In this document: piece after piece, positions 3,861-62,009 of the stretch | Position numbering within the stretch: position 1 is the stretch's first letter | Layout of the letters: the number at the start of each line of letters is the position of its first letter | DNA from: Pocillopora damicornis | Lineage: Eukaryota | Direction: 5' to 3' | Length of the DNA: 64,000 bases | Assembly: GCF_003704095.1 (NCBI RefSeq) | Contig: NW_020846501.1 | Coordinates: 1 to 64,000, forward strand | The notes under the pieces: generated by a model | Told to the model about the DNA's origin: nothing | The model's input: the letters and a program-made list of their open reading frames with translations, nothing else | Database searches by the model: none | Program-made: the position numbers and the translations under genes

Positions 3861-5157
3861 AGAGGTTTCAATTGAAATGGAAGTAAATTTAGCATGTAAG
3901 AGGGCAATTTCGGAAAGAGTAATCTGTCTGAAAGCGGTTTTTGTTCCTAGTCAATCACACTTCTGTGCGAATTGTTCAAGCTGCTAGTATCATTCGATAA
4001 CTCAACACAAACTTCATGGGTCAGCTTTATTACGCAAGATTCTTTTTCAAATGTGTGACCCTATGAACGCTTCGATAGAATATGGAGAATTCTGTGAAGA
4101 GAACTGAAAGGAAGAATAAATGAAACACATACTGTTGGGTGAAATTTGCACAAACCCTCGAGTTATTCAAACAGCAGTAACAGTACATCCTGGTACATCA
4201 TGGTCCTAGAGGTAATAGGGAAAATCCAGCCATGGGAACATGAGAGGTTGTTTGCCTGTCAGAAAAACACATTTGTTTGTAAGAAATGAATGATATATTA
4301 TGGTAATTAAACTGAGCAGAGTGCAATTTGATCTGCAATCATAGGTGTGATTTCAAAGTTGAACAAGCACTCAGTGCAAGTTTGATTTAAAACCACAAGT
4401 ATGGTTCAGACTAAACTTGTGCAACACAAAGTCTAATTACCACTTGATTACATCTATTTTGAAATTGCAAAATTCAGTCATTCAAATACAGGTTTTTGTA
4501 ATCTGTACAAATATTCAAATGATCAAGTATTTAGCTGGTTTGTAAAAAGTTGCAAAAGTGTAATTTGGTTGGTCACTTAAAACAAGTCTTGAAATCTGAT
4601 TGGTTGTTGTTTTTTTTAGTAAAGCTCTCTCATTGGCTGGGAAAAATTAATCTTGCTGTATCCTCCACAGGCTGGGAAAAAATATTATGAAATGTTTTGA
4701 TTTGTGATCAAATTGCACAAATGAGAGCCAAATCAGATTGCAGGATCAACAGTGCTTTCAAAATGGATATAATAAATTACTTATAGGTAATTCCAAAATG
4801 CATTGTCTTCTTTACATTATAGGGTTTTAACCTGTATATTGTACATAAATCTATTAGCAAATAGATTCCATATTGTTGTGGGTCTGTTCAGTATTAGATC
4901 ACAAAATGATTAAACATGTTAAAAGGTGGCAACAACAAGAAAAACTAACATGAGGCACAGCAACAACTTTTGGGACAATCTATGTATCTGATGATAAAGT
5001 GAATCTAAGTCCCTTTGGTAAAATAGAACTGTAGATAGATAGTAAGATGATTTTTATTTAATAAATCAATTAATTCATCGGTGTTTGTCCTCATTAAATC
5101 TTTTCAGGGCTGTGTGAATATGTTATGAGCCACTATTAGCCTAAGAGTGAGAAAATC

Positions 5158-8100
5158 ATGTCACAACAGGCGAGTGAAAGGGAATCAAAGCCTGAAAAAC
5201 TTATTGACACTATCAGGCATAAAATAGAGAAGAATGAACAGTTCTTTTCCTTGGAGTTTTATCCACCAAAGACCTTCAATGGAGCAACCAACCTTATGGC
5301 AATACTTGGAAGATTACATGAACAGTGTACTCCTCTCTTTTGTGACATCACTTGGAAACCATCTCAAGACCCTATGTCAGACAAGTGTCAGTCAGAGCCT
5401 AGCACACTGTTAGTTTCTGCGGCAATGATTGATGTATATGGACAAAATATTATGATTCACATCCCATCAGGAAACACAACAAGAAGTCAGGTGTTGGAGC
5501 ATCTTAATCGAGCTAAAAATCTTGGTATTAAAAGTGTTCTTGCAGTGAGAGGAGGTACTGCTTGAATTTTATGTGAGTCATTTTATGTTGGCCAGGGCTT
5601 CCTCTGGTATCTGTAGCATGATGTGACCATACGTATTACCATAAGTATTACAATAGACTGGTATAAGATGCCACTACCTCCTGAGGCTAGACCCCACTCC
5701 CCTATATCATTTCATCAGGCTTCCCTGACAATTCCCTTGTTCCCATTGATACTCCTGGATGGTGATAGCCACTGTGAGAGTGAACTGTCTTTGATACAAC
5801 ACAATGACCAGGCTGGGTCTTGGACCTGGATCTCTAGAACCTGAACTCTTGTGAGCTAACTTTTGGTCCGCAAGTCTCCCGCTGTTTTTCTTTCCAACAC
5901 AACGTAAGAACTCTGGAAAGGCTAGAACAAGTGATTAACATGTTAATTCTCCTGATAACATCCATACATGATCCAGCATACAGGTAACGAGAATACTCAA
6001 ACTTATTAGGTAGAAGTTGTAATCTTGATCTAACACCAAATTCTCATAACTTATTTGCAAGGAAATGTTTAGCAGCTGGAGGGGAGAATTAACAATCAGA
6101 TCTTGGTGTTAAAAGGGTTAACAGCTGAGTAACCACCATTAATTGATTACTCTAGGGAGATTCAGTAACAGTGCAGATTTATTGAGTTACTGATTAAAAC
6201 TTGAGAAAACTTTCACCTTTTGTCTAGCAGATGAAAGCTATGGTGAAGCCATGACACCAAAAGAAGATGGATTCGACTACACTGTGGACCTGGTTAAATT
6301 TATCAAAAGTGAATTTGGGGACCACTTCACAATAGGAGTGGTAGGTATGTAAAACCTTAGTGGGTATTCTTCTCTTCTTCTTTGACAATTGTATTCAAAT
6401 TGCTATGTTTATACATGAGTTAGTATTTCAATCTGCAGGTATGAGACTCCTGAGTAGTGAGTAAGAATTGGCACTCTTGGCGTTAGCCAGGATTATACAC
6501 ACCTTATCCGAAAGTTTTACTTATGATACTAGCAAGTATTTTGCGAGCTGTGCAGTATTTTTCTTTGCTCTGAAGGGGAGAAGAAAAATATGAGCAATGA
6601 GAACAAACTATTTGCTCGTAACTTATGTTAAATCATTGCATGAGGGATTTAGTTTTACGTGGGATGCCTGTCGCAGACCACGCTAAAAAATGGGATTGAA
6701 TATCAGCGTTGTGAGATTTGGAAATTAGCCACCTGCTTGTTAGCCACGTGCATGTGCCTCTCATTGAAGTTGAGGCCTATTGGCTGGAGTTAAAACTCGG
6801 ATGGGTGACCGCGCATCATACCCCGTGTCAATGACTTTTTTGTCTTTTTTTTTTTTCGGTTTCATTCCTGTTCCTCGAAGAAAATTAGTTATTTTCCGCG
6901 TTAAACCCGGGTGACTGTACATAACGACCAACGCATCTCTCGTTAACGCCATCGAATATGGCCTGCGTAGAAAACAAAGCTAAAGCCATTGAAGTGTTTT
7001 TATGGCTAACCAAAAAAAATCTGATGCGCTTAAAATTTTGTTGCGTAACCCTTTAAGCCCCGATATTGACATGTATATTCTCGTCACTGTTCCCCATATG
7101 TTTCTTATTTTACTGATCGAGAGAATTTGTTCAAACATCAAGACGTTTCATCTTTGGTAATCATTTCATTCATTCTCATGATCCGTACATTTGACCAGGC
7201 AGTGATATTGTGAAGAGAAATTAGATGCTGGTCACTACTGGGGCTTAAAGGGTTGAAAAGTTAAGCTTAAAAAAATGGAATAAAACCAAAGTTTAGATCG
7301 TTCAGTGCGGCCATTTTGTCCTCCACTCCTCCCTCGTATTTTTGCCCTGTTCTTCAGTGTAATACTGTGGCATATTTTGCGCCTTCTGTCGCCTTAATAT
7401 GGTAAAAAAAAAATTAACAGTGGAAACATTATGTGATTTATATTCTCATGTTCTAGGTTATTTGATGGCCTCCTCTGACGTTCACAGTTATGAAGAAGAC
7501 TTAAAACATCTTAAAGCCGAGGTTGATGCCGGTGCAGACCTTATCATTACACAAATGTTCTTTGAAGTTAAAACTTTCCTTAAGTTTGTTGACGATTGCC
7601 AGAGATATGGAATCAATGTTCCCATTATACCTGCCCTTTTTCCAATACAGGTTTGTAATAAGTTGTATTGTTAGATCACCCTTACGGTTCCGCGCGCGCT
7701 TTTATTGAAAAGCTTTAGACGAAAAATCCCCGTGCGAGAGCCGCACGCAGTGGCACGTGCAGGGCCCGAGAAACCTGTCCAGCCTCGCAAGATGCAAAAT
7801 GAAAGTATAAAATATGAAAAAAAAAGAGTGAAGGCTATATTATAAAATGCTTATTGACTAAGTTGGGTCGGGTCGGATGGGAAAATGTTTGGCTTTCCGT
7901 CATGACTAAGCTTCGCTCGATCCGTCCGTCATGGCCTCGATCCAAATTTGTTGTTCTCAGGCCCTCCTACTCAAGCAAGTAGTTAGTTATTTTTTAATAA
8001 ATCAGTGTCAAGTTTCGATTTCTACTTTGTCAAATCAATGCATGGTTAGCCTGTGAGCAGGCCCGCATGAGTGGTGTTAAGGCACCAGCGTTGCTCCACG

Positions 8101-11099
8101 CGCAAGAACGTTTGAGGCCTCGGTCAGAGCGAGCTAGAGAGGTACAACTTTGCGAAGGGTCTGACACTAATAATGAGCTAGACCCCGTGCAGACCTCGCG
8201 GGCGTAGAAACCCTTGTGGGGCTGCACTTCTTACGAGGTCTATGTATGACACAACTTTTAAAGTTATCTTTTTGGTATTCGATAGAACTTTAACTCATTG
8301 CGGCAACTGAAACGGCAATCCCGCGTAGAGATACCACAGTGGCTGTTGGACAAACTGGCTCCAATGAAAGATGACACCACTGCTGTCATGAATTACGGCA
8401 TCAAATACTCCACAGAAATGTGTAAGCAGCTGTTTGAAAGCGGCCACGTCCATGGTGTACATTTCTATACATTGAACAGGGAGACCTCCATCACAGAAAT
8501 TCTAGAAAAGATTGGAATGTCGCATAAGGAGGACGAACTGGATTCCGTTTCTATGCGGAGACTGCCTTGGATGCCGAGCCCCGCCCAAGCAAGGAGGGGC
8601 CAAATGGAGCTAGTTCGTCCGATTTTTTGGACCTCAAGACCTCGCAGTTACATGATCCGTACTTCAAACTGGGATGAGTTCCCGAACGGGAGGTGGGGAG
8701 ATTCTAGCGCAGCGTCATTTGGAGAATTAAAGGATTATCATTTGGTGCTGCTGGGTACAAACAAGAGTAAAGAGGAACTGTTGAACATGTGGGGACGCGA
8801 GTTGAACAGCCCTGAGGACGTGTTTGAAGTGTTTGTGTGCTATTTGAATGGAAATGAAAACAGGCATGGGTACAAGGTGGGTATTTCGTGAAATTCAGCT
8901 GNNNNNNNNNNNNNNNNNNNNNNNNNNNNNNNNNNNNNNNNNNNNNNNNNNNNNNNNNNNNNNNNNNNNNNNNNNNNNNNNNNNNNNNNNNNNNNNNNNN
9001 NAACTAGCATCAGAAACATTGCCTTTTGTCGATAAACTCGCCCATATCAACAGACACGGAATACTCACGATCAACAGCCAGCCAAACGTGAATGGTGCAC
9101 CTTCCACAGACCCTGTGTCGGGATGGGGGCGTCCGGGCGGATACGTTTTTCAAAAGGTGAACTCTGCTGATTGGTTGTCGCTAAACGAATTAAAAGTCTA
9201 TCACGACCGAACTAAATTTTTTTGTGACCAACATTAATGTGGAGGAGGGGGAAAGGGGAGAAATGGTTCAACAGTTTTGACATGGATTGTTGTTTTACTT
9301 TTAAACAAGCTTCTAATTTCTCCTTACAATATCACCCTAGAATCAAACATAAAGGTCTTGAGAATAAAGGAACTGATCACCAATTAAAGAAGCCCTTGAT
9401 TGTTACACAAATTCTCCTTGTCAGCACCGTGTGAACTGTATGGAGAACAGTATGGAGAATGTGCATACTGATGTTAGGACGTGGAGGATTCAATGAAACC
9501 CGTGCGAAGGTTTTCTAAATGGTATATGTATTCATGTTCCTACAGGCTTATTTGGAGTTCTTTACCAGTGAAGAAATAGCAATGTGCCTTCATGAAGTCC
9601 TTCAAGACTATCCTACCGTTAATTATCACATTGTGAACTTCTCGGTGAGTAATTTTAAATCTTTGTTTTGTCGTAGAGCAGTTTTAAACCAGAGTCCAAG
9701 TTATCAGAACTACCAGTCAGAACACACGCATCATCATTAACCAATGAGAACCCAGAGTAAAAACAGGCAACCTGCTTAAAGCGCGGGAAAACCTGGGTGA
9801 CCAAATTAGGATTGGTTTTAGTTTTGCATTTGATTGGTAGAGATGGTGGTGCGAGTTTCCAGGACCAATCGCAGAGCGAAGTAAAGCAAAGCCAAAGAAA
9901 TCCAGGATCAGTTTCCGTACTCAATTGAAAATTGCTTTTTTAGTTAAACTTTAAAATCTACGATGAATTTTTTTGCGTAGTAGTTTAGAGGTTCAGACGA
10001 GCTGCGCTCGGTGCTTTAAAGCGAATAGGAGATACCACCGAAGACGAAACTGTTAAAAAGAGAGTAAAGTTCCCCAAAACCCTTCCATTAATGTTTTTGT
10101 CGTATTTTAGTTGCCGTAAATTATGTTTCAAAGAAAACGACTTTGTCGCACGTCTAACGTCAGTTACTGTCACTGTCACGTAATTTAATCTCAGGGAAAG
10201 GAAGACGTGACAAATGCGAATGTGTACTCTTCCAATGCTGTTACTTGGGGCGTGTTTCCAGGATCAGAGATTCTTCAACCGACTGTAGTGGATCCTATTG
10301 CTTTCCAGTTTTGGAAGGTAAGGGTTTGACGCTTAAGGTGTTAGAAACCTGGACGAAACGAGAATACATTTTAGCTTATAAGAGTGCACCTAGATCGAGT
10401 AGAACGCCTTCACAACGGCCAATCAACAGAAAGGAAAAGACCCTGAAGAACCAATGAGAACCCTGAGCGCGGGAAAACGCGGGCGACCAAATCGTGATTG
10501 GTTTAAGTTTTGCATCTGATTGGTTGAGAGAGTGGAGCGAGTTTTCTGGACCCATCACAGAGAGAAATAAGGAAACACAAAGCAATCCCGCGTAACTCTC
10601 AACATTCGAATGAAAATTGCTTTATCGTAAAGCTAAAATCGAGGTTGGTGCGATGGCAAATCAGAATTAAGGAAAATGGCACAAGGAACCAATGAGATCT
10701 GAGCAAAGTATACACGCGCAAAGTACCTTGAAGGCGGGAAATCGCGTGATTAGCGAAAGGATTGGCTGAGGTTTTTCCAGACCTGTCGCAGAGCAGGTAA
10801 AGGCCGCTCTTGCACATGCGTCTATAGGGCGAGATTATTTTCACAAGAGTCCCTCTCTTTGTCATGATCTGTCAGTGTTCTTTATCGCTTTATTTTTTTA
10901 CCATTTTTAGGACGAGGCGTTTGCTCTCTGGAAGCATCAGTGGGGACATATTTATCCCGATAAATCTCGTTCACGTGGGATAATCGACACCATTCATGAT
11001 ACTTATTATCTTATTAACCTGGTGGACAATGATTATGTGGCTGGAAATATCTTATTTGATATTCTGGACATCGTGTTGAAAAAACTGGGCAAAATATGA
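5158..11099 (+). CDS. MTHFR: Methylenetetrahydrofolate reductase, eukaryotic type (catalytic TIM barrel + SAM-binding regulatory domain), divergent
   Basis: Exons 5158-5554, 6231-6344, 7457-7650, 8286-8876, (start in gap)-9156, 9546-9644, 10195-10317, 10911-11099; GT/AG sites and phases consistent. Motifs: [14 protein letters not shown]|[56 protein letters not shown]|[26 protein letters not shown]|DEAF. Confidence 0.95.
6758..6830 (+). repeat. 5S rRNA-derived fragment (5S pseudogene or SINE3 head) in MTHFR intron 2
   Basis: gaagttgagg...gttaaaactcggatgggtgaccgc resembles the 5S internal control region (box A GAAGCTAAGC; IE/box C GTTAGTACTTGGATGGGAGACCGC). Followed by a T-tract. Confidence 0.6.
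7045..7256. mobile_element. piggyBac-like MITE (CCCTTTAA termini)
   Basis: TIRs aaccctttaagcccc / ggggcttaaagggtt; same family as 32845-33054. Confidence 0.7.
9700..9937. repeat. Dispersed intronic repeat family (gcgcgggaaaac...gaccaa...tctgattggttgaga)
   Basis: Related copies at ~10410-10625, ~10660-10800, ~14190-14450, ~15850-16085, and inverted at ~24590-24780 and ~37190-37390. Confidence 0.7.
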
Positions 11100-33054: not shown

Positions 33055-33264
33055 GTTATTGGGAATAGACCAGGGATTCTTTATCTCTAGAAAAAAGAGG
33101 GGGGAGGGGTGGTGTAGGAGGATTTGAGGAGGATCACTTGGTGTTTAGGGGGAGCGAGAGGGGATCAGTCGGCGTTAAGAGAGTACAAAGGAGGCCACAA
33201 TTGAAAATTGACCGCCAATCAAAATATTGATGTTAAAGACAAATACTACAACCGTAGGTAATAA

Positions 33265-34113
33265 TGTTTCCCAGATCGATATACCAACCAGCGACTTTGC
33301 CAAAACTTAATTTCTTGCATCCTTACGACCTTCTATGGCAACTTGCAGAATTTTGAAGGCGTATTCTGTGGAGAGGGCGCCAAAAATGTGAAGAAAATGA
33401 TGGCTGCTTCCTATGATATCGAATTTTCCTGGCAAGAGTCGTTCCATAAATCAACTCGCCCACGATTGAGTAAAAGCAGCGACATCAAAAGTATGTGATT
33501 AGCAGCTCATTACGGGCGATGAAGGATTGGCATGTCGTAACAGCGTGACAGCTGTTTATAGTCACGCCAACTGCAAGAGATAACAGTGTCCTACCAGCCA
33601 ACGAACACTGGAATTATGCGGATCGCCGAGCCGTGCTATACTCTAGCAGAATAAGAAAGTTGTCAGGAAAGACAAACTGGCACCGATGATCGTGTAAAAC
33701 AATGCAGATTCGAAAATTCTCCATCCGGTTCGGGTGGGTCGATTGTCGAAGAACATCACTTGACCGGAGGTGTAGGTGTAGATTCTAATATCGGCATAGT
33801 CAGAGAAGTAGAAAACTCTGTGCAACTTTTCCGACTATGAGTTAAATGTATGAGCTGTAGCACTCAACGCGCAGATTGTGATGCTCCGGATAGCCGATGG
33901 TAACATTGGGTAATAAAAGTCTTGTTTCGGCGAGGGCAAACTTCCTAACTCAATACTCAAGACCACGGAATACTGCACGATAAAATAAAAACACACCACG
34001 ATATGGCTCCACATATTAAAAGCCTCATTATTAATGTAGAAAAGGCTTTGTAACATTCCCAGGTGCTGCTGTAAGGCTTCCGATACCGCTAATAACGAAG
34101 GCTCTTTGGAAAT
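33265..34113 (-). pseudogene. PAQR pseudogene, duplicate of 47752-48885
   Basis: Colinear with ~47865-48737 (e.g. gaagaaaatgatggctgcttcctatgatatcgaattttcctggcaagagtcgttc is identical). Carries deletions, in-frame stops and no 5' end. Confidence 0.92.
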
Positions 34114-34116
34114 TAG

Positions 34117-36019
<1,903 letters not shown>

Positions 36020-36782: not shown

Positions 36783-39700
36783 TTATCTTATATTCTTCCA
36801 ATTTACATCCGCGAGACCTTTTGGCGCGTACTGCTGTTGCGGAGGACTGGGTATAGGTATTTTCCAACCATCGTTCAGAGCATTGTTGGCCGACATGATA
36901 GCACCCTCAGAGTACCCCCGATAGGGATGATACGCGCTACCAATAACGTAGATCTCCTCTCCTGCAATAGGTCTCTTTGCCCATTGGGTGACTTGCTTCA
37001 TGGAAACGTGGCTTCCAGGTTTCTGTAAGTACCTTGAAATAAAGAAAGCGTATTCGGGATGGTCTGGGAGACTTGTTTTTATGACAGAACTGGAGTCGAA
37101 GTAGAAATTTTCCTTTTTAACCCAGTGTAAGATTTCACAGTTCTTTTATGAGTGTCCAGAATAATCCACATTTACATTAGTTTTGGTTGACTTCACCTTA
37201 TGATTGGTCGGAAAAAAACTTGTGTCACACATTCACAACCAATGGCGACCTGATTAATAATCTTTTCCTGACTCAGGAAATTCACTCATTACAACATTGA
37301 GTTTCATCGGCTCGTTTCATTCTTTTCCTTGGCTCTGATTGGTCATTGAAATAGCTTTTGTCTGTTTTCACGACACTCAATCAAAAGAAGAGATAGGTAG
37401 TCTGACGCAATGACAAGAGGGAAAAGAACACACTTCAAATGCACGACAGGATTGCTAGGTAATTGTTAATTTAAAGTACTACCCTTTTCAGTAATGATTA
37501 CAATGGCTGGCCTTCAGAGAGAATTCTCTTACCATGCACCTTCGTTCCAATACTGATACACTGTGCTCAGAGGTTTGGGGATTTTTCTGTTAAACTTGTA
37601 TTCCAAGGCGCGGTGAATTTCTCGGTCCATAACGTCTTTTGGTAATTTGAGGATCTCGCCCCATTTTTCGCCACAAACACCGTCCGTGTAAGCTACGTGA
37701 AGAACTGCCTCGCCATTTCGACCGCTCCCGCTGGTAATAAACGAGACAATTATTGAAAAGATAGGAATTTTTAAACTCGGTATTAAAATTAATAGAAAAA
37801 AGATAGCTTTTTCGCCTTGTCACAAGGCTGGAACCCATGAGGAATCGAACCCCAAACCTTTGGAAAAGAGGAAAAAAATGATTATGTTGTATCGCTTTAG
37901 AAACAAAATTATTCTAGACCGATAGAAAGCAGGGAAGTTTGCATTTTAATAAAAACCGCTCTAATTAGAGATTGTTTTACGTTAGTTACACGAATGGTAG
38001 TCGTAAAATTTAGAAAGCTAACTATTTCTCTTTTCCAATTACTTTTTTTTTCTTTTTTTTTTTTACGGAGCTTTGATATATATTGATGAGAATATACAGG
38101 TGTATCTTGTCAACAAGCCCCACCTATGTGGTAACGTCCATCCAAGACAATCACTGTTGGATAAAAATCTCTCCATAGGGTACAACTTGTCCTTCACATT
38201 CGTGATTTCTTCCCACCACGCCGTGGGGTACACTGCAGCCCCCTTAAATGCTGGGCGGGGTAGGATGGACTGAAATTCTGGTGCACGCTGAATCTGTTCC
38301 GCTACGCTGCCGCTGACACTTCCAAACGCACCCGGAGGAGCAGCCACAACTAATTTCCCAACGCTTACTTCGTATTGTGAAGTTTTAAGGGCGAACTGGT
38401 TTGTTTGTTTGTCTATTGATAGAATCTTGTGGTTATCACCCGTGAAAATTTTTGTGCCCAGACCTCTTGCCGATTTGGCCAAAGCCTCGATGAATGCCGA
38501 CATCCCTCTTAAAGGACGAATCTCTTTTCCTGTAAGTGCAGCTAGTTGTTCGTAGAATTCTACCACGCCTTCTGGACTACCGTCAAGGTCTCCATCATAC
38601 CCAAAAACGTCGAAATAAAACCTGGAACCTTCAGGTGTTAAATAGTGCTTCTGGAATGTTTCGAACGTTGCGAAATTGTGGACTTTATCGACATGTTCTT
38701 TTCTGAGTAGATAGTCCAACATTTGCGAACAAGTCATGTCTTTGAATTTTCCTTGAGTTAGAGCCGGGAATGATTTTCTTTTGATTTCATGCTCGTCCCG
38801 TGCGAAGAAACCTCTAGTTTCTGTTCGAGGATTTGAGTAAAAGTTCCAGTCTTTGTGAGGAATGTTTAGTCTGTTGAGGATATTCCTATGAAACAAAAAA
38901 TTTTGTGCACAATTGAAATTCAAATCGTCTCAATTGCACTACTAGCAAGTTGAACCCAAGAAAGAGAAAAAAAATTTAAGACTGTCCACGAGCTAAGTGG
39001 TCAACCAGCCGGAGCTTATTCCAGTTTCCATAGTGTTATGGCATAATCTAACCCACGGGAAATACTACCATTCCACAAACTCAACTACTTTATTAAACAG
39101 CAAATAATTTTCTTAACAAGGAGCAGTTCCCAAAACCAGTACAATACTTATCGTTCATAACCTTCATTAAGCCCACCACAGTCTATATCCCAGCTCACCA
39201 CTGGCACAATCTCACTGGTGTCTCCAAAGTTACCGGCCTTGGAATGAGCAATCTTCCGCAGTAACTCTCTCTCGGTACAGCTTTCAAAACAGTCGTCGCT
39301 CCGACAACAACAACTCCTACTACTTTTACGTAAGTGAGTCTTTATATTTATTTACAAAGTGTTCTGGAGCATTCTAGAGGCTCACATAAAAACTATTTTA
39401 GTAGTATTACTTAACAATTGCGTGACTTGATGAAATGTTTTAGAAAGTGCTTTGGTATGAAAGTCAGCATGACTCAGCAGTCTGGAGATTTCTAAAGGCT
39501 TACATTTACAACAATTGCTCATAACAATAGAATGAGGCGACTAGCAGTATAAGTACTCCCCCCTGGAGCAGTATAAGTACTCCCCCCTCTCCCCCGACAT
39601 TCCATCAGGCCTCCTGGCCCGACATATCGCCGTTACCCGTTCATACTCTTGGGTTAAAAGAGGCACAGTTAGGGTAAAGTATTTTACCCAAGAATACACC

Positions 39701-52900: not shown

Positions 52901-53983
52901 ATGGTAGACAGACAGCGAAACAGCCTTAGCACCACAGCTGCCAACAATAATAGTAGCTTGACAGTTGGTGCAATCGATAATGACAGGGTCATTTTTGAGG
53001 AAGAGGAAATGCCCGGGGGACTTCGAGAACCTTTCATCAAGTCAGGATACCGGCGAGCTTACAGCACGCCTTGGCAGTGCTTGAAAAGCCTTTTCTACAT
53101 CAATAATGAGAGTGTTAACGTGTGGAGCCACATCATAGCGGCACTATACTTCGCCGTACGCTATGGAACGGCTGCATCTACTCAGGTGGACTCAATTTTA
53201 GATCCTTTCAATTTGCCACTTTTGGCCTCAGCCATGGGAACTGTAATTTTGTACTCTTCCAGTGCAACTGCTCATCTTTTCAACTCCATTTCTGAAAGAG
53301 GATACAAAATCTGCTTCTTTTTCGACTACGCAGCGGTCAGTTTTTACACATTCACCTCGTGCCAAGCTATGTTCTTCTATGCTCGGCCAGTGAACTCTCA
53401 GTGGAGGATCTTTGAATCGCCAGCTTTTTACCTGAGCCTAGCAGCCCTGTTTTCGTTTCTTGTGACCTACGGTTGTTGCAAAACGGATGCTGCAGTCAAC
53501 AAGTTCAGCACTTTTTTGCGGATGTTATCAGTAATCGCCGCTTGGATTCACAGTACCTTACCAATTCTGGTTGGCGCGACTCTTTGCACCTGTCACGTAA
53601 CTGACAAGAGTTGTTGGTCCTCTTCCGCCTGTAGCAGTTTACCCGTTAGATATTACCTGCGTCACGCATTTTACACTTTTCTGGCGGGTTTCATGTACAG
53701 CACCAGGCTACCTGAACGCCTCATTCCTGGAAGATTTGATTTGGTCGGGAACAGTCATCATTTTCTACACGTCTGTGTTGCCATAGGAACAGAATATGCC
53801 TTCAAAATGGTTGAATTTGAAATCAACGCCCGGAAAGCCAGGGGAATGTTGGAAGAGACAACCGCGTACGTGTCCATTCTCAACACCTTGGTCGCGGCCA
53901 TATTAGTGATGTTTTTGAACGCTTGTATTGCATTCTGGTTTTCTATTACTCTTAAGCAAAAGGAAAGTTCTCATAAAAACTAA
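52901..53983 (+). CDS. PAQR family receptor (membrane progestin receptor-like), 360 aa
   Basis: REPFIKSGYR, NESVNVWSH, SATAH, DYAAV, PERLIPGRFDLVGNSHHFLH. A splice acceptor ends at 52862 just upstream of the ATG at 52901, so the ORF-track extension from 52601 is intronic. Confidence 0.92.
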   Translation: MVDRQRNSLSTTAANNNSSLTVGAIDNDRVIFEEEEMPGGLREPFIKSGYRRAYSTPWQCLKSLFYINNESVNVWSHIIAALYFAVRYGTAASTQVDSILDPFNLPLLASAMGTVILYSSSATAHLFNSISERGYKICFFFDYAAVSFYTFTSCQAMFFYARPVNSQWRIFESPAFYLSLAALFSFLVTYGCCKTDAAVNKFSTFLRMLSVIAAWIHSTLPILVGATLCTCHVTDKSCWSSSACSSLPVRYYLRHAFYTFLAGFMYSTRLPERLIPGRFDLVGNSHHFLHVCVAIGTEYAFKMVEFEINARKARGMLEETTAYVSILNTLVAAILVMFLNACIAFWFSITLKQKESSHKN

Positions 53984-55110: not shown

Positions 55111-57498
55111 ACATGGAATTGTGGGCCATATTCTTGAGAGTTTCTCTCTCCACCTCAGTCCTACATGTGCACAGATGTATGCATGCTTTAACCACTGTTA
55201 AGGGGTATCCACGTGACGTTACGAGGCTTTCGCCAACCATTGGGAACGTACTTTATTGATGGTAGCTCAAAGAGAAGTTTCATCTGTCTCTGAAAATAAT
55301 TTTGAACTGCCCGACTAGTACGAAGGCAGCTCCTTCCAGTCTTTGGATATGTAATCATAAGAAGAGAGATTCTCTCTTTCGTAAGTCTGATTATTCATAT
55401 CACTTACGCCGTAGCCTGTTGCGATTCTTCAATCCAGTTTAGCTAATGAAGCAGTTAAATCAATGTCGATGTACTAGAAAAAGTCAATTTAAGGAAGTGA
55501 CTAGACCATGAAAATAACTTCAAGCTCAAGTTTTTCCTCTAAATTTGTGTTAATATTAGAGCGCTCTTTTGTTTGTGCTTCAAGTTTCGAAGACCCTCAG
55601 GTTTTTCGCCTAAGCTTGCATATATTTGCTCACTTACTGAATAAAATGTATATTGCTTTGCATAACAAACACATCATTACGTTTGGATGTAAGGTTTTAT
55701 ATTGAACGAAATATATTCCGTTCACGAACTCTCTAAATTGAGCAGTTTTTGCAAAACTAGAATTCAGGCAAGGAAAGTTCTCTTTCAATCAGTTTTTCTC
55801 CGAACAATTGAAAGAAAAACTTGAGAATGCCGGGATCGGTAGGTCTCTAGCTCAGTCATTTCCTCAGAAAATCTGTCTTGCTTTGGATTTCTCTTGATAC
55901 TAAAAATGTCCACAAGAAAGAATTATCAAAATTTCATTAAACTTAACGCTCAAATATTAAACCATCAGTGTTTTTTTTTTCTTCTGTCACGGTCAGCAAA
56001 GAGCGTAGATGACAGGATCAAAAATTCACGATCACCTTAGGTTTCCGTGTGTGTTTCTTCCCAGGTATGTTATTTGTTCATGTTTGCCTGTTCTATATTT
56101 GTTGACATTTTCTGCTCAAAAATCTAATCAACTTGGCAACACTTAGTTTCATTCCCCCCTCCTAGACTTTTCAAGTTTATTTTTACAAAAATATGAAGTT
56201 TGAAAACGAAGGTTTGATCGAGGGTCTCAATGTGATTACCCGTTGGCCGTAAAAATGCTAAAATTTAGCTGATAGGCTTTAAAATTGAAAAATTGTAACC
56301 GCTAGTCGTAAAAAAGTTAAACGTAAAAATTTTTATTTCAATCGCAAGGGAAAAGAATTAAACGTTAGCCGTAAAATGGCCAAAATTTTAACCGTTAGCG
56401 TAAAACCCATCATCCCTTTGAAATCCTTGTAATCCTGCGAATCAACAATTATTAAATTTAGGCACCAGATGTTTTCGAGCTATGAAACGCTCTTTGTGAA
56501 AAGAAGCTAGCAACACAGCTACTTTACCTTAAAATTAATTTCCCTCACCATCTTAAGAAATATGCTCGATTTACACAAATGGTCATGCACCGAGTTATGG
56601 GGTTCATTTGAATTATATAGGAACTGGCCTATTCACAGAAGAACCAGTACCGTCGGTGACGGACATGTTAAGGCGAGGGAAGGTTTCGAAGAATCAGTTC
56701 CAAAAGTTTGGTCTTAAAATTTACTGTTTTTTTGATAATTTCTCACATATTTTTCCTTTGCCTAGCAATTTGATTTTCGAGTTATTTGATGAAAAGCAGT
56801 TCCCAGGTCTACTAATTGTTAATTATTTTCACCGGAGCCTAATTTCTTGATAATGGAATGGGTATATATGGCAGGACTTTAATTTCGCGAATTGGCCACA
56901 AATATGCATTAAAGGGAAATTAATTTCGCAAAATTGTCAAATTACTTATCTGCATTAACAAACAGTTAGTCTTAGAGTTGGCACAACTGCTTTTAATTTT
57001 CCATAACAATAGTTTCCAAAACCATATTAAAACAAAACGGAAAACCTTTTGACACGTTCCTTTGCAACAAAGCGGAGCTGTACAAGAGTACATAACACAG
57101 CCTATTTGCGATTTCAGCTTTAGGACATTGTCAATTTCTTCGAATAGATTCTCCGGAGGAAGAGATTACTCACGGTTTGCTACCCTAGAAACTCCTGCTT
57201 TGTCCAATCTTTTGGCAACGTAGCGCTTTCCCACATTGTAAGCCAAGTGTAATGATTTTGCGTGCTTAATTTTCGCTAAAACTCTTTCATGTGGGTCTTA
57301 AACTTCGCTATTTTTTGACAACCGTGAAATCGCGAAAATTAAGTCTTGTGAAAATAAATACGCGAAAACATGTCGTCCATTGTAAATAATAAAAAAGTCA
57401 TTAGTTCACAGCCATCATATTTTTTTTATTACTTTGTTTTTAGATCTGATCGACAAGTAATCATCTCTTTGAAAAAATTCAGTGCCTGACGCAAACAT

Positions 57499-58578
57499 AT
57501 GGAGGACAGCTTGCGCAATCGCACTAAAAAAATCAAGGAAATCAAGAAAATGATAAACCATCACGAAAAGAAGTTGTTCAACGATGAAGAGACGACTGAG
57601 TGGCATAGGGAACCGTTCATCAAGTCTGAATAACGAAAGCACAACAGTACGTTTTGGTAGTGTTTAAAAAGCCTCTTCTATTTACACAACCAAAGTTTTT
57701 AACGTTTGGAGTCATATCTTGTTGTCTTTGTATTTTCTTGTTCATTTTTCCCAGACCTTAAGCGAGGACACTCATCCGAACTTTGATCCTTTCAATTTAC
57801 CAATGCTCTCTGCTGGAATCGGAACAGTAACTGTGTACCTCACAAGCGGTTCAGTGCGTCTCTTCAACCCAATGTCTGAGAAGGCCTACAAAACCTGTTT
57901 CTTCTTCGACTATGCGGGTATCAGCCTAATGACCTTCACTTCATGCCAAGTATTGTTTTTTTACACCCGACCTATGAATACTGGTTGGATGATCTTCGAG
58001 TTTCCTTCTCTTTTCTTCTCAGTAGCAAGCTGTCTCAGCTTTCTCGGGACGTACCTCTGTTGTAAGACTAATGCTATCAATAACGTGTTCAGCACATCTC
58101 TGCGCGCAGCTGCATTTCTCGCGGGTATTTAAACACGACAGAGCCTTATTTGGCGAGTGTGGTGTTTTGCAGTTGTCACGAGGATGACACGTGCTTAGTG
58201 TTCTCTGCCTGCAGTAAATTATCCCGTGGTTTCTACGTTGGTTACGTGGTTAATATGATTCTATCCGACCTCCTGTATAGCGGCAGGTTTCCAGAGCGTA
58301 TTTTCCCTGGAATGTTTGATTTAATTGGCCAAGGTCACCAACTCATGCACGTTTTATCTGCCATTGGAACAGAATTTGCCTACAGGATGATTGAACTGCA
58401 CAGGAAGCAAGCACAAGAGAGTGCAGTAAAAATGGTGGCTACAGTGAGTCGTGTTTTATTGTTTAACACCCTGATGCTAACTATTTTTATGCTTGTGTTG
58501 AATGCGGGTATCGTCTTGTGTTTTGGATTAGCATCTGGTAGTGATAGTATGGATAGCATGGTTGAGCCTGCTGAGTGA
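57499..58578 (+). pseudogene. Third PAQR paralogue, pseudogene
   Basis: REPFIKSE*RK...W*CLKSLFYLHNQ, a frameshift before NVWSH, a stop/frameshift at ~58130-58150, SxxxH His lost (SGSVR). PERIFPGMFDLIGQGHQLMH is retained. Confidence 0.9.
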
Positions 58579-59350
58579 GGTACCACCAAGTGGCTGGAGT
58601 ATCATGTTAAAACATCCTGATGCTATCTATTTTAATTCCTGTATTAAACTTAGGTCTCGTTAAATGGTCTGGATTGGCTTCTGGTGCTGTTGCCATGAAC
58701 TCGGGTAAAACGTGCGGCTGAGCCAAGGGCATTGAAACTAAGGAAAACAAGGAGTGGTACATTATTATTTAGGATCTTGGTGGCGGCCATTCTGATGCTT
58801 GTTTTAAATGTGGGTTTTATCCTATGGTCTGGTTTGGCATCTGGTGGTTATGCCATGAACCACGCAAGCTTTCCGGGCGAGGCAAGTGTTTCCTGACAAC
58901 TGTAAGTTACGAAAACAATTTTTTGGTGCATCTTTGTTGAAATCCTGATGCAATTCACTCTGATGCTTGTTTTAAATGAGGATCTTCCCTTGTGGTTTGG
59001 ATTGGCTTCTGATGGTGGTACCATGGGCTCGGGTAGGACGCTCCAGTGAGTTACAAGTGCATCCCGCCGATTGCAACTCACGAGAACGAAGTGGTTTGTT
59101 TAGTCCTTTTTTAACTACATGAAAGTAATCGCTTTGATGCATATGGTGAAAATAGGTCTGCTCGTCTGGTCTGGATTGGCTTCTGCTGACAACTCCATGG
59201 AGTTGTCAGCAGAAGCCAATCTAGACTCAAGTAACTCAAGTACAACCCTTGAACCCTTTTTGTGTATCCTCGTTCAACATACTGCCTGTCTTGAGTGTCG
59301 GTCTTACTTTGTGGTTTGGATTGGCCTCTGGTGGTAATACCATGAACATG
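58465..59350 (+). repeat. Six tandem degenerate copies of the PAQR last TM helix (LMLVLNxGxxLWxGLASGGxxM)
   Basis: GLAS codons start at 58525, 58671, 58831, 58999, 59173 and 59318 (spacing 145-174 bp). Confidence 0.85.
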
Positions 59351-60429
59351 ACTGAGAGAAATAGACCTTTCTCCAAAGTAGGGAAAAACTGGAAGCACTT
59401 TTTTTTTTGCTTCGTCGTGTTTACCATCACTTGTTGTTTCAAGAGCGGCTTAGGCCAAATAAAAATATTCAATTCTTTTCAATAAATTTGATTTGACCCA
59501 AAAACGAGGTCCGTTTCAAAATAGCATTTAAACAAGTGCGTTAGATCAAATTCGAATGTACGATAAAAGGCACCTGATTTATCCACCAAAAGCTTTTCAG
59601 GATAATCTCAGCAGAAGATCACGGTCAAAGTAGCGATAAAGTTCAATGCGTTAACATCAGTTTAACTTTAGACCACCATACCGGCCTAAATAAGTCCAAA
59701 GTATGGAAATTACCTTTATTCGTGCCAACCTTCTAAATTTTTGCTTGTTCTTATACAATGATGGTTTATTCATTCTCTTCGAACTTTTCTCTAATCACAC
59801 CAAACAAATATTTTGTGGTTTCTAACTCTATTAATTTTGTAAGTACAAACAGTACTGTTTTATACGCGAGAAAAATCGCAGTGGAAACACGTGCACACGA
59901 AAGCGGAGCAAAAAGATATTGTTTGAAAAAAGCCATCCATTTGGCCTGCAGATCTTTGGGTTCAATTCCCACTTGATTGAAACTAAAGAAAATCCATTTA
60001 GGCAGGAAACATTATTTTGGTTGATGAAACTTGAACTTGGAAATAGAAAGCGGTTCTGTGTATACTTAGCCTTTAAAAGATGGCCTTAACGGTGGATTTT
60101 TTAAAGTCGTAATAGCGGAAAAAGAGTATGAATGCAATTAATTTAAGTTCATATCTCGCTTAGTGTGCTCTTTCAAAGTTGTCTCTTTATCAGAAATTGT
60201 CGTTCTACAACTCTTTTTGGTGTATTTCTCCTATTCAAACTTTTATTAATAGTCTAACCAAACCTACATTTTGTGGCTTCCAAAATATTAACACTAATTA
60301 CACAATTGAGAATTATGATAGTATGCGCGAGGAAGGGCCAAGAGGAAAAAAATGCTCACCGCAACGAAAACGATACCTGAAACAGTGAAAAAAATTCCTA
60401 TGGGAAGTAAAACTATATTTGAAGCGCGC

Positions 60430-60894
60430 TGAAGATCCCACACGCGAAAGAAATAATTCAGACCACCATCACCGCTGTCTTCAGGTTCCTACCAGCTATA
60501 AAGTTTGAGTATTGCATCGTAAATTTAATCGCCATGAGTCTCTCGAATGTAACCAGCATCAAATGAAGACAGGGGGCTGTTGTCAATACAGCCAAAGTAG
60601 AAGAAAAGAAATTTTCAAGCGTACCGGCACTGTAACTAAGACTAAGTAATAGGAACATTGCCCACAGGATGTACGATATATGGCCAAGGAGACCAGTTGA
60701 TGCGTCAGTCACCGCTTAACACAGGACGGCAAGATGTTTCTACTGGATCGGGGTCGAGTGGTCGTTTTCACGGACTTTATCACCAGCACGTTGGGGAGAA
60801 TTGTGAAGGGGCGAGCGATGCTGGTAATCATGATGGGGACAATGAAACTAATCTTTAGAGGGACATAAGCTGTGTCGCCTTCTGTACCGGCCAT
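60430..60894 (-). pseudogene. Rhodopsin-class GPCR pseudogene (N-terminus to TM4)
   Basis: PFTILPNVLVIKSVKT...NIL (TM1-2), frameshift, then TDASTGLLG...HLMLVTFERLMAIKF (TM2-3, E/DRY-equivalent ERL), stop after TM4. Confidence 0.8.
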
Positions 60895-62009
60895 CCTGAT
60901 AGCATTTGTAGATTAAGCTTGGAGTAGTTATGCATTTTGAGTTAAATATCCAATAAAGATCAAGTGAAACTTTAAGCACAATGCCTTGGGTCTCAGCTGT
61001 AGTCTGGAGGCTTTTACAGAAACGATCCACTCCAGTGTGCATGTGTTTCCACTTGTCTTTTTCTCGCCCATGATTTACATTATTCTTAATTGCGTAATTC
61101 ATGAGATTGTTTATTTTGTCGGAAATAAAAAATAGAAAAAAAAATCAATAGTTATGCGAGGGATAATCGCACTCTATTCATTGCAGTAAATTTGCTATAG
61201 ACTTGGAATTCACCATGGAAATAATGGAAATGTACTCTAAAAGTACGAAAATTGAAAGTGATTTTGATACATATTATTAATGTTAGGCTCAACGAAAGTA
61301 CTGACAGCCGGTTATTCATAGTTTCGTTGTATCCTATGATCTTAGATAACTGATTGAGTAATTTTTGTCGCAATTGAGTAAAATTGCTGAGAATCAGATT
61401 TCACGGAATCTAGTTTTACTTTTGTATGGCTATATACCTAATTTAATTTTTTCACCAAACCTTCAAAACGTTTCGATAAAACAATGGAGAGCCTTGATAT
61501 GTACATGTCGTAATTGTTTTCTTAGTAAGCTGGGCATTTTAATAACGTTCCTTGTTTTCACACCTGACTGTTGTATTATTTGCACAAGCATCAATATGAA
61601 AGATGTAACTGAACTTCTGAGGGAATTCTTTCCTCGTGCACTGCTCCATTTTATCTTTAAATCATACAGCTGGTATCCGTTATGCAGAAATACATACATA
61701 GATACATATATCCTTTATTTCAGGTAAAGTAGGACTATTACAGTACATGATCAGTATATGGCTATTTCAATATATGATCTGTTTTCGTACACTATCTTTT
61801 TCGGATTTGTTTACTTAGTTTCCCCGCTATATACCTCTGAATTATTGGATGCAAGGCATGGATCCTTTTTCTAAATAGAAGCTTTCTTGTTTCTTTTTAC
61901 CTCCAGCATTAAATCATTCCCGTTGAATCAGCAAGCGAGTTTAACATGGAACATGAAAGTATAAACACTTCATGATGGGAAAAACATTATAGAGGACTGA
62001 GGCAGAGAA

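What the first reader, a model, noticed from the sequence alone, without database searches (positions are those of the whole stretch)
58465..59350. PAQR whose last transmembrane helix was amplified six-fold: fossil of an extended ~12-TM receptor
Seen: after TM7 of the third PAQR come five more units of LMLVLNxGxxLWxGLAS(G)xxxM separated by polar linkers. Units 1, 3, 4 and 5 share one frame; units 2 and 6 are offset by 1 nt. The GLAS codons differ only synonymously (GGA TTA GCA TCT / GGA TTG GCT TCT / GGT TTG GCA TCT / GGA TTG GCT TCT / GGA TTG GCT TCT / GGA TTG GCC TCT) while linkers are highly diverged, which is the pattern expected of past protein-level selection. Stops fall in the linkers, as expected for decay, and the PAQR body is also broken. 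Known: PAQRs normally end shortly after the 7-TM core. Inference: an ancestral PAQR with five extra tandem TM helices, an architecture I do not recognise, possibly intact in related corals. Alternative: a run of small single-TM peptides.
Basis: partly seen in the sequence, partly recalled or inferred. Interest (0 to 1): 0.72.

Follow-up and report, generated by a model that had tools for sequence, protein, structure and literature searches.

The report
Copied tail of coral receptor gene
Six head-to-tail copies of the last ~150 bases of a coral membrane-receptor (PAQR) gene are really there, but every related protein found has a stop codon after the first copy, so the other five are likely untranslated, decaying leftovers and not the fossil of a giant receptor.

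Summary
The six units are real, with the coordinates, frames and GLAS codons reported, and occur once in the genome. The repeated helix is not TM7 but the predicted eighth helix that marks class II PAQRs. The gene body is broken in this allele but intact in relatives (358 aa). All 55 retrieved proteins reaching unit 1 have a stop there (49 end; 6 were called with TGA read as Trp). No PAQR-plus-repeat protein was found in four searches. Units 2 and 4 carry an in-frame TGA at the same codon as unit-1 alleles, so the copied segment most likely included the stop. Weak residues remain: no stops in the helices (P~0.1), a synonymous excess among alleles (P 0.09), a conserved 21-nt block (P<0.01), and a 28-bp hairpin antisense to that block. 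Best reading: amplified gene tail decaying in the 3' UTR (0.55); former 13-helix receptor 0.2; small downstream peptides 0.15.

The parts
57499..58578 (+). Class II-type PAQR coding sequence, broken in this allele (stops at 57631 and 57658, frameshifts near 57696-57700 and 58121, His-to-Arg at the SxxxH motif, 57858)
   Evidence: intact 358-aa alleles P0060/P0061/P0068; Pfam HlyIII 83.8 bits, cut-off 26.2; lesions differ between samples
58441..58578 (+). Unit 1: predicted eighth helix, 12-13-residue tail and the gene's stop codon (TGA 58576-58578)
   Evidence: AlphaFold2 helix 322-357 of P0060; stop shared by 55 of 55 proteins
58590..58721 (+). Unit 2, frame shifted against unit 1; ATG 58620 to TGA 58719-58721 would give a 33-aa peptide
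58747..58896 (+). Unit 3, best-preserved helix; first in-frame stop 58894-58896; ATG 58795 would give a 33-aa peptide
   Evidence: variable among alleles
58915..59049 (+). Unit 4, helix carries Gln, Glu, Asp and Pro; TGA 59047-59049 at the same codon (+18) as unit 2; ATG 58948 would give a 33-aa peptide
59086..59250 (+). Unit 5, most diverged; its tail is replaced by an inverted copy
59168..59227 (+). Fully paired 28-bp hairpin with a 4-nt loop; its 3' arm is antisense to the conserved 21-nt block of the units
   Evidence: z = -9.3; the only such hairpin in the 64-kb window; Rfam miRNA models only below their cut-offs
59251..59352 (+). Unit 6, with an internal deletion; in frame with unit 5 in common alleles that have 5 more bases near 59251-59256
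59458..59486 (+). Two AATAAA hexamers (59458, 59481), candidate poly(A) signals
   Evidence: one poly(A) RNA contig covers 59257-59536; function inferred
52901..53983 (+). Intact neighbouring PAQR, the likely parent of the duplicate; single eighth helix, no repeats

Best explanation
The last ~150 bases of a class II-type PAQR gene (its predicted eighth membrane helix, a short tail and likely its stop codon) stand in six tandem copies; the protein ends after copy 1, so copies 2-6 likely lie untranslated in the 3' UTR and are likely decaying without selection. Inferred order: the 53k PAQR duplicated and the copy evolved fast; one duplication copied the copy's 3' end; unequal crossing-over or slippage raised the downstream copy to five; these diverged by about 0.1-0.4 substitutions per base each; an inverted duplication later made a hairpin in unit 5; the receptor itself is now broken in some alleles and intact in others. 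Shown: the repeats, the shared stop, intact and broken alleles. Predicted: the eighth-helix identity. Inferred: that the stop was part of the copied segment, the UTR position, neutrality and the order of events.
For: Stop after unit 1 in 55 of 55 retrieved proteins, including P0015 at 70% identity (many are fragments or near-identical alleles). The 6 called through TGA run out of frame before unit 2. In-frame TGA exactly 18 codons after the Trp in units 2 and 4 and in 19 unit-1 alleles; P0015's tail aligns with the 12-residue form. No PAQR-plus-repeat protein: 13 hits of 7,997 candidates cover at most 43% of the query; 91 hits in 1.84 billion representatives, none joining body and repeats, longest 465 aa; 0 of 1,569 candidates over 627 aa (weak). 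Codon-model dN/dS among units 2-6: 0.83-0.87 whole unit (p 0.47-0.57), 0.76 at -18..+11, with 0.2-0.4 rejected and 1 not, against 0.26 in intact homologues. Helix hydropathy 1.72 observed, 1.67-1.78 expected under neutral decay. Alleles delete or damage units: P0198, P0200, P0075, P0226. No pyrimidine-rich AG acceptor before any of units 2-6; an RNA contig reads unspliced across the unit 3-4 stops.
Against: A 21-nt block is conserved beyond neutral expectation (4 of 21 columns vary; P from under 0.0003 to 0.009), which this reading leaves to chance or gene conversion. No stop in 140 core codons (2.4-2.9 expected, P 0.07-0.11). Helix dN/dS 0.59-0.61 (p 0.10-0.12); simple counting gives 0.47 against 0.85 and 1.05 in shifted frames. 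6 of 12 listed allele differences in units 2-6 are synonymous, 28% expected (P 0.09; from 40 of 139 rows shown). Four of five downstream units share unit 1's frame in common alleles. The tail alignment has a second register in which units 3 and 6 read Glu and unit 1's stop would come from a 4-nt duplication; it needs 4-5 indels against 2, counted by eye. UTR position rests on two short contigs in 1 of 4 RNA runs.
Confidence: 0.55

Rival explanations
1. The units were once one open frame giving a PAQR with 13 helices (8+5); a later stop after unit 1 cut it back and the rest decayed.
For: Units 1, 3, 4, 5 share a frame and unit 6 joins unit 5 in frame in common alleles (P0073 cluster, 62 members); single alleles join 2-3 (P0191, P0206) or open the 4-5 linker (P0210, P0220). 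No stops in cores, helix dN/dS about 0.6, conserved W-x-G-L-A-S-G block. Tail truncation by a new stop occurs in the family (L024).
Against: No long protein. Same-codon TGA in units 1 (alleles), 2 and 4. Stop shared with a 70%-identical orthologue. Hydropathy no better than neutral. The unit 4-5 frame match has two stops inside it, so it cannot have been kept for an open frame. P0191's join looks derived: its close relative P0071 and the window both have the shift. About 7 repairs are needed over five linkers, about what random linkers would need (rough estimate, not simulated).
Confidence: 0.2
2. Units 2-6 are small downstream reading frames on the PAQR mRNA that are translated into single-helix membrane peptides resembling helix 8.
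For: Units 2, 3 and 4 each hold an ATG-to-stop frame of 33 codons; units 5-6 form a 100-126-aa frame in most retrieved alleles. Synonymous excess among alleles arose after the stop was fixed, so if real it cannot come from a fossil protein (P 0.09). Three weak tests lean the same way (Fisher, by hand, P about 0.03; post hoc).
Against: Alleles carry charged or helix-breaking changes in the helices and deletions of whole units; ATG positions differ between units and Met is ordinary in helix 8; unit 4 has Glu, Asp and Pro in its helix; no family match; gene callers list such short frames mechanically.
Confidence: 0.15
3. The array works as RNA: the unit-5 hairpin gives a small RNA that pairs with the conserved block in each unit and silences the gene's own mRNA, as proposed for cnidarian miRNAs born by inverted duplication of their targets.
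For: The 3' arm is antisense to exactly the block that is conserved; a 22-mer from 59206-59227 pairs with unit 2 at 20 of 22 and unit 4 at 21 of 22 positions counting G:U. Model: PMC7713132 (passages read).
Against: The arms differ at one position, so the hairpin may be much younger than the units; loop of 4 nt and stem of 28 bp are short for a miRNA precursor (recalled); unit 1 pairs poorly (13 of 22 Watson-Crick); no arm sequence in the cnidarian and three-coral miRNA tables of PMC13343488 (file cut when stored); alleles change the block or delete the hairpin's 5' arm.
Confidence: 0.07
4. The units are alternative ends reached by splicing, stop read-through or selenocysteine insertion at the shared TGA.
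For: TGA at the same codon in three units; a donor-like GTGAGT at 58443 before unit 1.
Against: No acceptor-like site before any of units 2-6; no joints in the gene in 4 RNA runs (sparse cover); frame is lost between units 1 and 2; TAA and TAG stops also occur; no SECIS family among 9 Rfam matches at E up to 5 over 57300-61500.
Confidence: 0.03

Closest known systems
Class II PAQRs (membrane progestin receptors, PAQR5-9; mPR-gamma-like genes of cnidarians)
   Same: HlyIII domain plus one extra helix C-terminal to the 7-helix core, the feature that defines class II (PMC3236824, passages; model). Cnidarian mPR genes are expanded (7 in Nematostella, PMC6604198, passages).
   Different: Five degenerate extra copies of helix 8 follow the stop; the gene is fast-evolving (45% to its neighbour, which is 65-71% to orthologues in other corals) and broken in some alleles. 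Ligand not tested; orthology to a vertebrate mPR not tested.
Adiponectin receptors AdipoR1/2 (class I PAQR)
   Same: Best solved-structure matches by sequence (E 3e-17) and fold (E 1.7e-10, TM 0.78-0.83 on the target); SxxxH, Asp and HxxxH positions kept in intact alleles.
   Different: AdipoRs have seven helices; the coral protein has a predicted eighth; the window allele has lost the SxxxH His.
Partial (3'-end) tandem gene duplication
   Same: A gene fragment copied head to tail behind its parent; a known class of mutation (general knowledge; search listing only).
   Different: Short (150-nt) unit, six copies, old enough to be 58-77% alike, yet still legible in frame; no description of this case found.
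Cnidarian small-RNA precursors born by inverted duplication of their target (PMC7713132)
   Same: A nearly perfect hairpin made from the sequence it would target.
   Different: Here the hairpin lies inside the would-be target transcript; no small-RNA evidence.

Membership tests
PAQR / HlyIII (PF03006) | Pfam HlyIII above the curated cut-off | tested here: met
   P0060 83.8 bits against 26.2
PAQR / HlyIII (PF03006) | Seven-helix core with the AdipoR fold | tested here: met
   AlphaFold2 pLDDT 91, seven long helices 64-307; Foldseek top 8 hits all AdipoR1/2. A model, not a solved structure.
PAQR / HlyIII (PF03006) | Three conserved motifs (ExxNxxxH, SxxxH, HxxxH; consensus wording recalled, HxxxH also in PMC3236824) | tested here: met
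   N68, W70, S116, H120, D137, H280, H284 conserved in the 68-row alignment; first Glu is Gln in this gene; the window allele has Arg for H120
Class II PAQR | One additional membrane helix C-terminal to the core | tested here: met
   Helix 322-357 = unit 1; definition from PMC3236824
Class II PAQR | Phylogenetic placement with named mPRs (PAQR5-9) | not tested
   No tree with named vertebrate sequences was built
Class II PAQR | Progestin binding or lipid hydrolase activity | not testable with these tools
   Needs an assay
   annotated non-Pocillopora genomes could not be searched as DNA
   0.59-0.87, p 0.10-0.57; 0.4 and 1.5 rejected, 1 not
Downstream small-ORF peptides | Translation of the short frames | not testable with these tools
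   No ribosome or peptide data
miRNA precursor | Stable hairpin | tested here: met
   28 bp, z -9.3
miRNA precursor | Precise 20-24-nt products from the arms | not testable with these tools
   Not among listed coral and cnidarian miRNAs; Rfam scores below cut-off; no small-RNA reads laid
Selenoprotein | SECIS element downstream of in-frame TGA | tested here: not met
   No SECIS family in Rfam scan of 57300-61500; a divergent SECIS could be missed

The most novel reading that the evidence does not exclude
The PAQR mRNA is polycistronic: behind the receptor's stop it carries a row of small frames, each a copy of the receptor's own eighth helix, translated into 33-residue membrane peptides that tune or compete with the receptor, while a hairpin born inside the array yields a small RNA that targets the array's shared 21-nt block.
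Probability: 0.12. Interest if true: 0.7.

Novelty: new member of a known kind. Interest (0 to 1): 0.28.

Why it matters
On the best reading it matters little: it shows how a redundant receptor copy collects tail duplications and loss-of-function alleles, and warns that simple synonymous counts in repeats overstate selection. If the small frames are translated, it would be a receptor that makes peptide copies of its own last helix from its 3' UTR. If the 13-helix ancestor were found, it would show that the PAQR fold tolerates large helix additions. The hairpin is a ready test case for the proposed birth of cnidarian small RNAs from their own targets.

Tried and rejected
Loop charge alternation: linker charges alternate acidic and basic (by eye), which first looked like a continuous membrane chain; with helix 8 ending in the cytosol (inferred from the model and the basic tails of paralogues; topology recalled) the pattern is the reverse of the positive-inside rule, so it was dropped. 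Nei-Gojobori dN/dS of 0.47: includes the functional unit 1 and ignores transition bias; replaced by codon models. The all-column stop test is not used: the simulated start sequence itself held a stop. One search had a misaligned unit 5 and was redone. Serial spawning of copies from the working gene end: the tree puts units 2-6 together against unit 1 (bootstrap 68), so it is not favoured, though weakly. Few indels in cores against many in linkers: most allele indels lie in base runs, which cores largely lack, so not counted. Unit profile over 77 loci: one weak hit outside the array (8.6 bits); it also missed helix 8 of other corals, so its reach is short. ESM Atlas on the unit 5-6 frame: best 0.79, uninformative. 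Array outside one RNA run: no cover in 3 of 4 runs, which proves nothing. Earlier scan notes: nothing. Papers: 'Pocillopora' with 'progestin' gave 0; listings showed no PAQR with a repeated helix (titles and abstract starts only); sequence words of the hairpin gave one unrelated paper.

Full report
Observation. The six units exist as described. Cores are 58-77% identical in DNA. The motif pattern has 5 matches in the 234-Mb genome, all here, control 0, and the stretch matches only itself and its own inverted piece. Contigs from 4 of 4 other samples cover the whole stretch without joints. The only named close relatives are Pocillopora proteins.

Setting. The window holds four PAQR loci: a broken one at 33199-34224 (-), intact ones at 47752-48885 (-) and 52901-53983 (+), and this one at 57499-58578 (+). 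A scan of metagenome contigs gave 55 loci. For the 20 best, each is closer to the 47k or 53k gene (mostly 65-73%) than to this gene (at most 51%), and the 15 whose 3' ends I printed end without repeats (6 to 4,000 bases of downstream DNA). This gene is 45% identical to the 53k gene. I infer a lineage-restricted, fast-evolving duplicate of the 53k gene; only one locus reached far enough downstream to have shown a syntenic copy, so absence elsewhere is weakly tested.

Which helix. An AlphaFold2 model of the intact allele P0060 (68-row alignment, pLDDT 91) has seven long helices up to residue 307, the last carrying the HxxxH motif, and then an eighth at 322-357, which is unit 1. Its closest solved structures are AdipoR1/2. 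One extra C-terminal helix is the stated mark of class II PAQRs (PMC3236824, passages read). So the amplified helix is helix 8, and an extended form would have had 13 helices.

The gene body. This allele has stops at 57631 and 57658, frameshifts near 57696-57700 and 58121, and Arg for a motif His. The 58121 shift, the 57658 stop and the His change are absent from 4 of 4 DNA samples; the 57631 stop is absent from 1 of 4 in the rows shown. Full-length 358-aa alleles exist. RNA contigs cover parts of the body in 4 of 4 runs from 3 studies, with both repaired and broken alleles. The gene is thus polymorphic for loss of function.

Is there a long form? Of 55 retrieved proteins that reach unit 1, 49 end 16-19 residues after the Trp and 6 were called with TGA as Trp and run out of frame before unit 2. 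They are not independent: many are fragments or near-identical alleles, and one or two come from this locus itself. The most distant, P0015 (70%), ends at the same place. Searches with the read-through frame found no protein joining body and repeats: 13 of 7,997 candidates at 212-676 aa, 91 hits among 1.84 billion representatives, 0 of 1,569 over 627 aa (weak by the tool's own note), 20 of 1,695 under 212 aa. The short hits are mechanical gene calls on single or paired units in close alleles.

The stops. The first in-frame stop lies 18 codons after the Trp in units 2 and 4, and in 19 unit-1 alleles with the 12-residue tail; P0015 aligns with that tail length, and the 3-base difference is seen as an allele in 2 of 4 samples. 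Without gaps, three units therefore end in TGA at one codon. A second register exists in which units 3 and 6 read Glu and unit 1 gained its stop by a 4-base duplication; by eye it costs 4-5 indels against 2. I take the copied stop as likelier, not as shown.

Selection. With unit 1 left out and transitions modelled it is 0.83-0.87 for whole units and 0.59-0.61 for the helix, neither different from 1 (p 0.47-0.57 and 0.10-0.12), on three tree shapes. For codons -18..+11 it is 0.76; 0.2, 0.3, 0.4 and 1.5 are rejected, 1 is not; intact homologues give 0.26. Units 2-6 group together against unit 1 (bootstrap 68). In 4,000 neutral simulations per setting, hydropathy matches (1.72 against 1.67-1.78), the lack of core stops has P 0.07-0.11, and only the 21-base block around the motif is conserved beyond chance (P under 0.0003 to 0.009). 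Among listed allele differences in units 2-6, 6 of 12 are synonymous against 28% expected (P 0.09; from the 40 of 139 rows shown). Protein alleles carry Asp, Lys or Pro in the helices, change the motif, or delete units, so strong present constraint is unlikely. The weak signals all lean one way and are the main case against my reading.

Transcript. One of four RNA runs has a 151-base contig over 58830-58980, unspliced across the unit 3-4 stops, and a 290-base contig to 59536, past two AATAAA signals; nothing is laid from 59537 to 60300. This fits a 3' UTR but DNA carry-over is not excluded. No acceptor-like site precedes units 2-6 and no SECIS was found.

Hairpin. Unit 5's tail is an inverted copy of its own motif region: 28 pairs, 4-base loop, z -9.3, unique in the window. 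Its 3' arm is antisense to the conserved block and could pair well with units 2 and 4, poorly with unit 1. Cnidarian miRNAs are proposed to arise this way (PMC7713132, passages read). No arm sequence occurs in the supplementary miRNA tables of PMC13343488 (searched; file cut when stored; main text passages). Its near-perfect arms suggest it is younger than the units, so it probably did not cause the block's conservation.

Mechanism and verdict. Most likely the end of a redundant class II-type PAQR gene, stop included, was copied once and then amplified, leaving five untranslated copies that decay (0.55). A former 13-helix receptor (0.2), translated small peptides (0.15), an RNA role (0.07) and splicing or recoding (0.03) remain. 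I found no description of this array in the searches (listings only), which cover open-access papers alone. The main gap is DNA behind P0015 and from other pocilloporid genera, which I could not fetch. Interest 0.28.

Noticed in passing
window 33199-34224 (-) and 34229-34361: A fourth, broken PAQR resembling the 47k gene (7 stops in the match), with a 65-bp two-copy tandem duplication at its 5' side.
   Followed up: no
window 59168-59227: Fully paired 28-bp hairpin whose 3' arm is antisense to the array's conserved block; candidate young small-RNA precursor.
   Followed up: partly
window 57499-58578: The gene segregates intact and several broken alleles; both kinds appear in RNA contigs.
   Followed up: partly
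window 47752-48885 (-) and 52901-53983 (+); L026: The head-to-head pair of intact PAQRs is kept in another coral contig.
   Followed up: partly
window 59353-59387: A 35-base piece right after unit 6 is shared with other contigs that continue in unrelated sequence, likely the end of a dispersed repeat (loose ends in 3 of 4 runs).
   Followed up: no
window 58465-58536 against 58774-58800: Unit 3 keeps the LVAAIL stretch of the 53k parent's helix 8, which unit 1 has lost; possible ancestral state or conversion.
   Followed up: no
P0042, P0070: Public gene models at this locus invent introns around the lesions or fuse it with the 53k gene.
   Followed up: no
P0251: A 485-aa phage-capsid-like protein is clustered with the 33-aa unit-3 peptides, apparently a clustering artefact.
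   Followed up: no
G000 C3714, C3105, C2777 (L005-L009, L012, L014): Other PAQR genes of this genome also come in close pairs, one partner broken on C2777; none shows the repeats.
   Followed up: partly
window 5140-9237 (+) and 36783-38929 (-): Exons resembling methylenetetrahydrofolate reductase and an amine-oxidase-like flavoprotein (recognised from recall of the translations).
   Followed up: no
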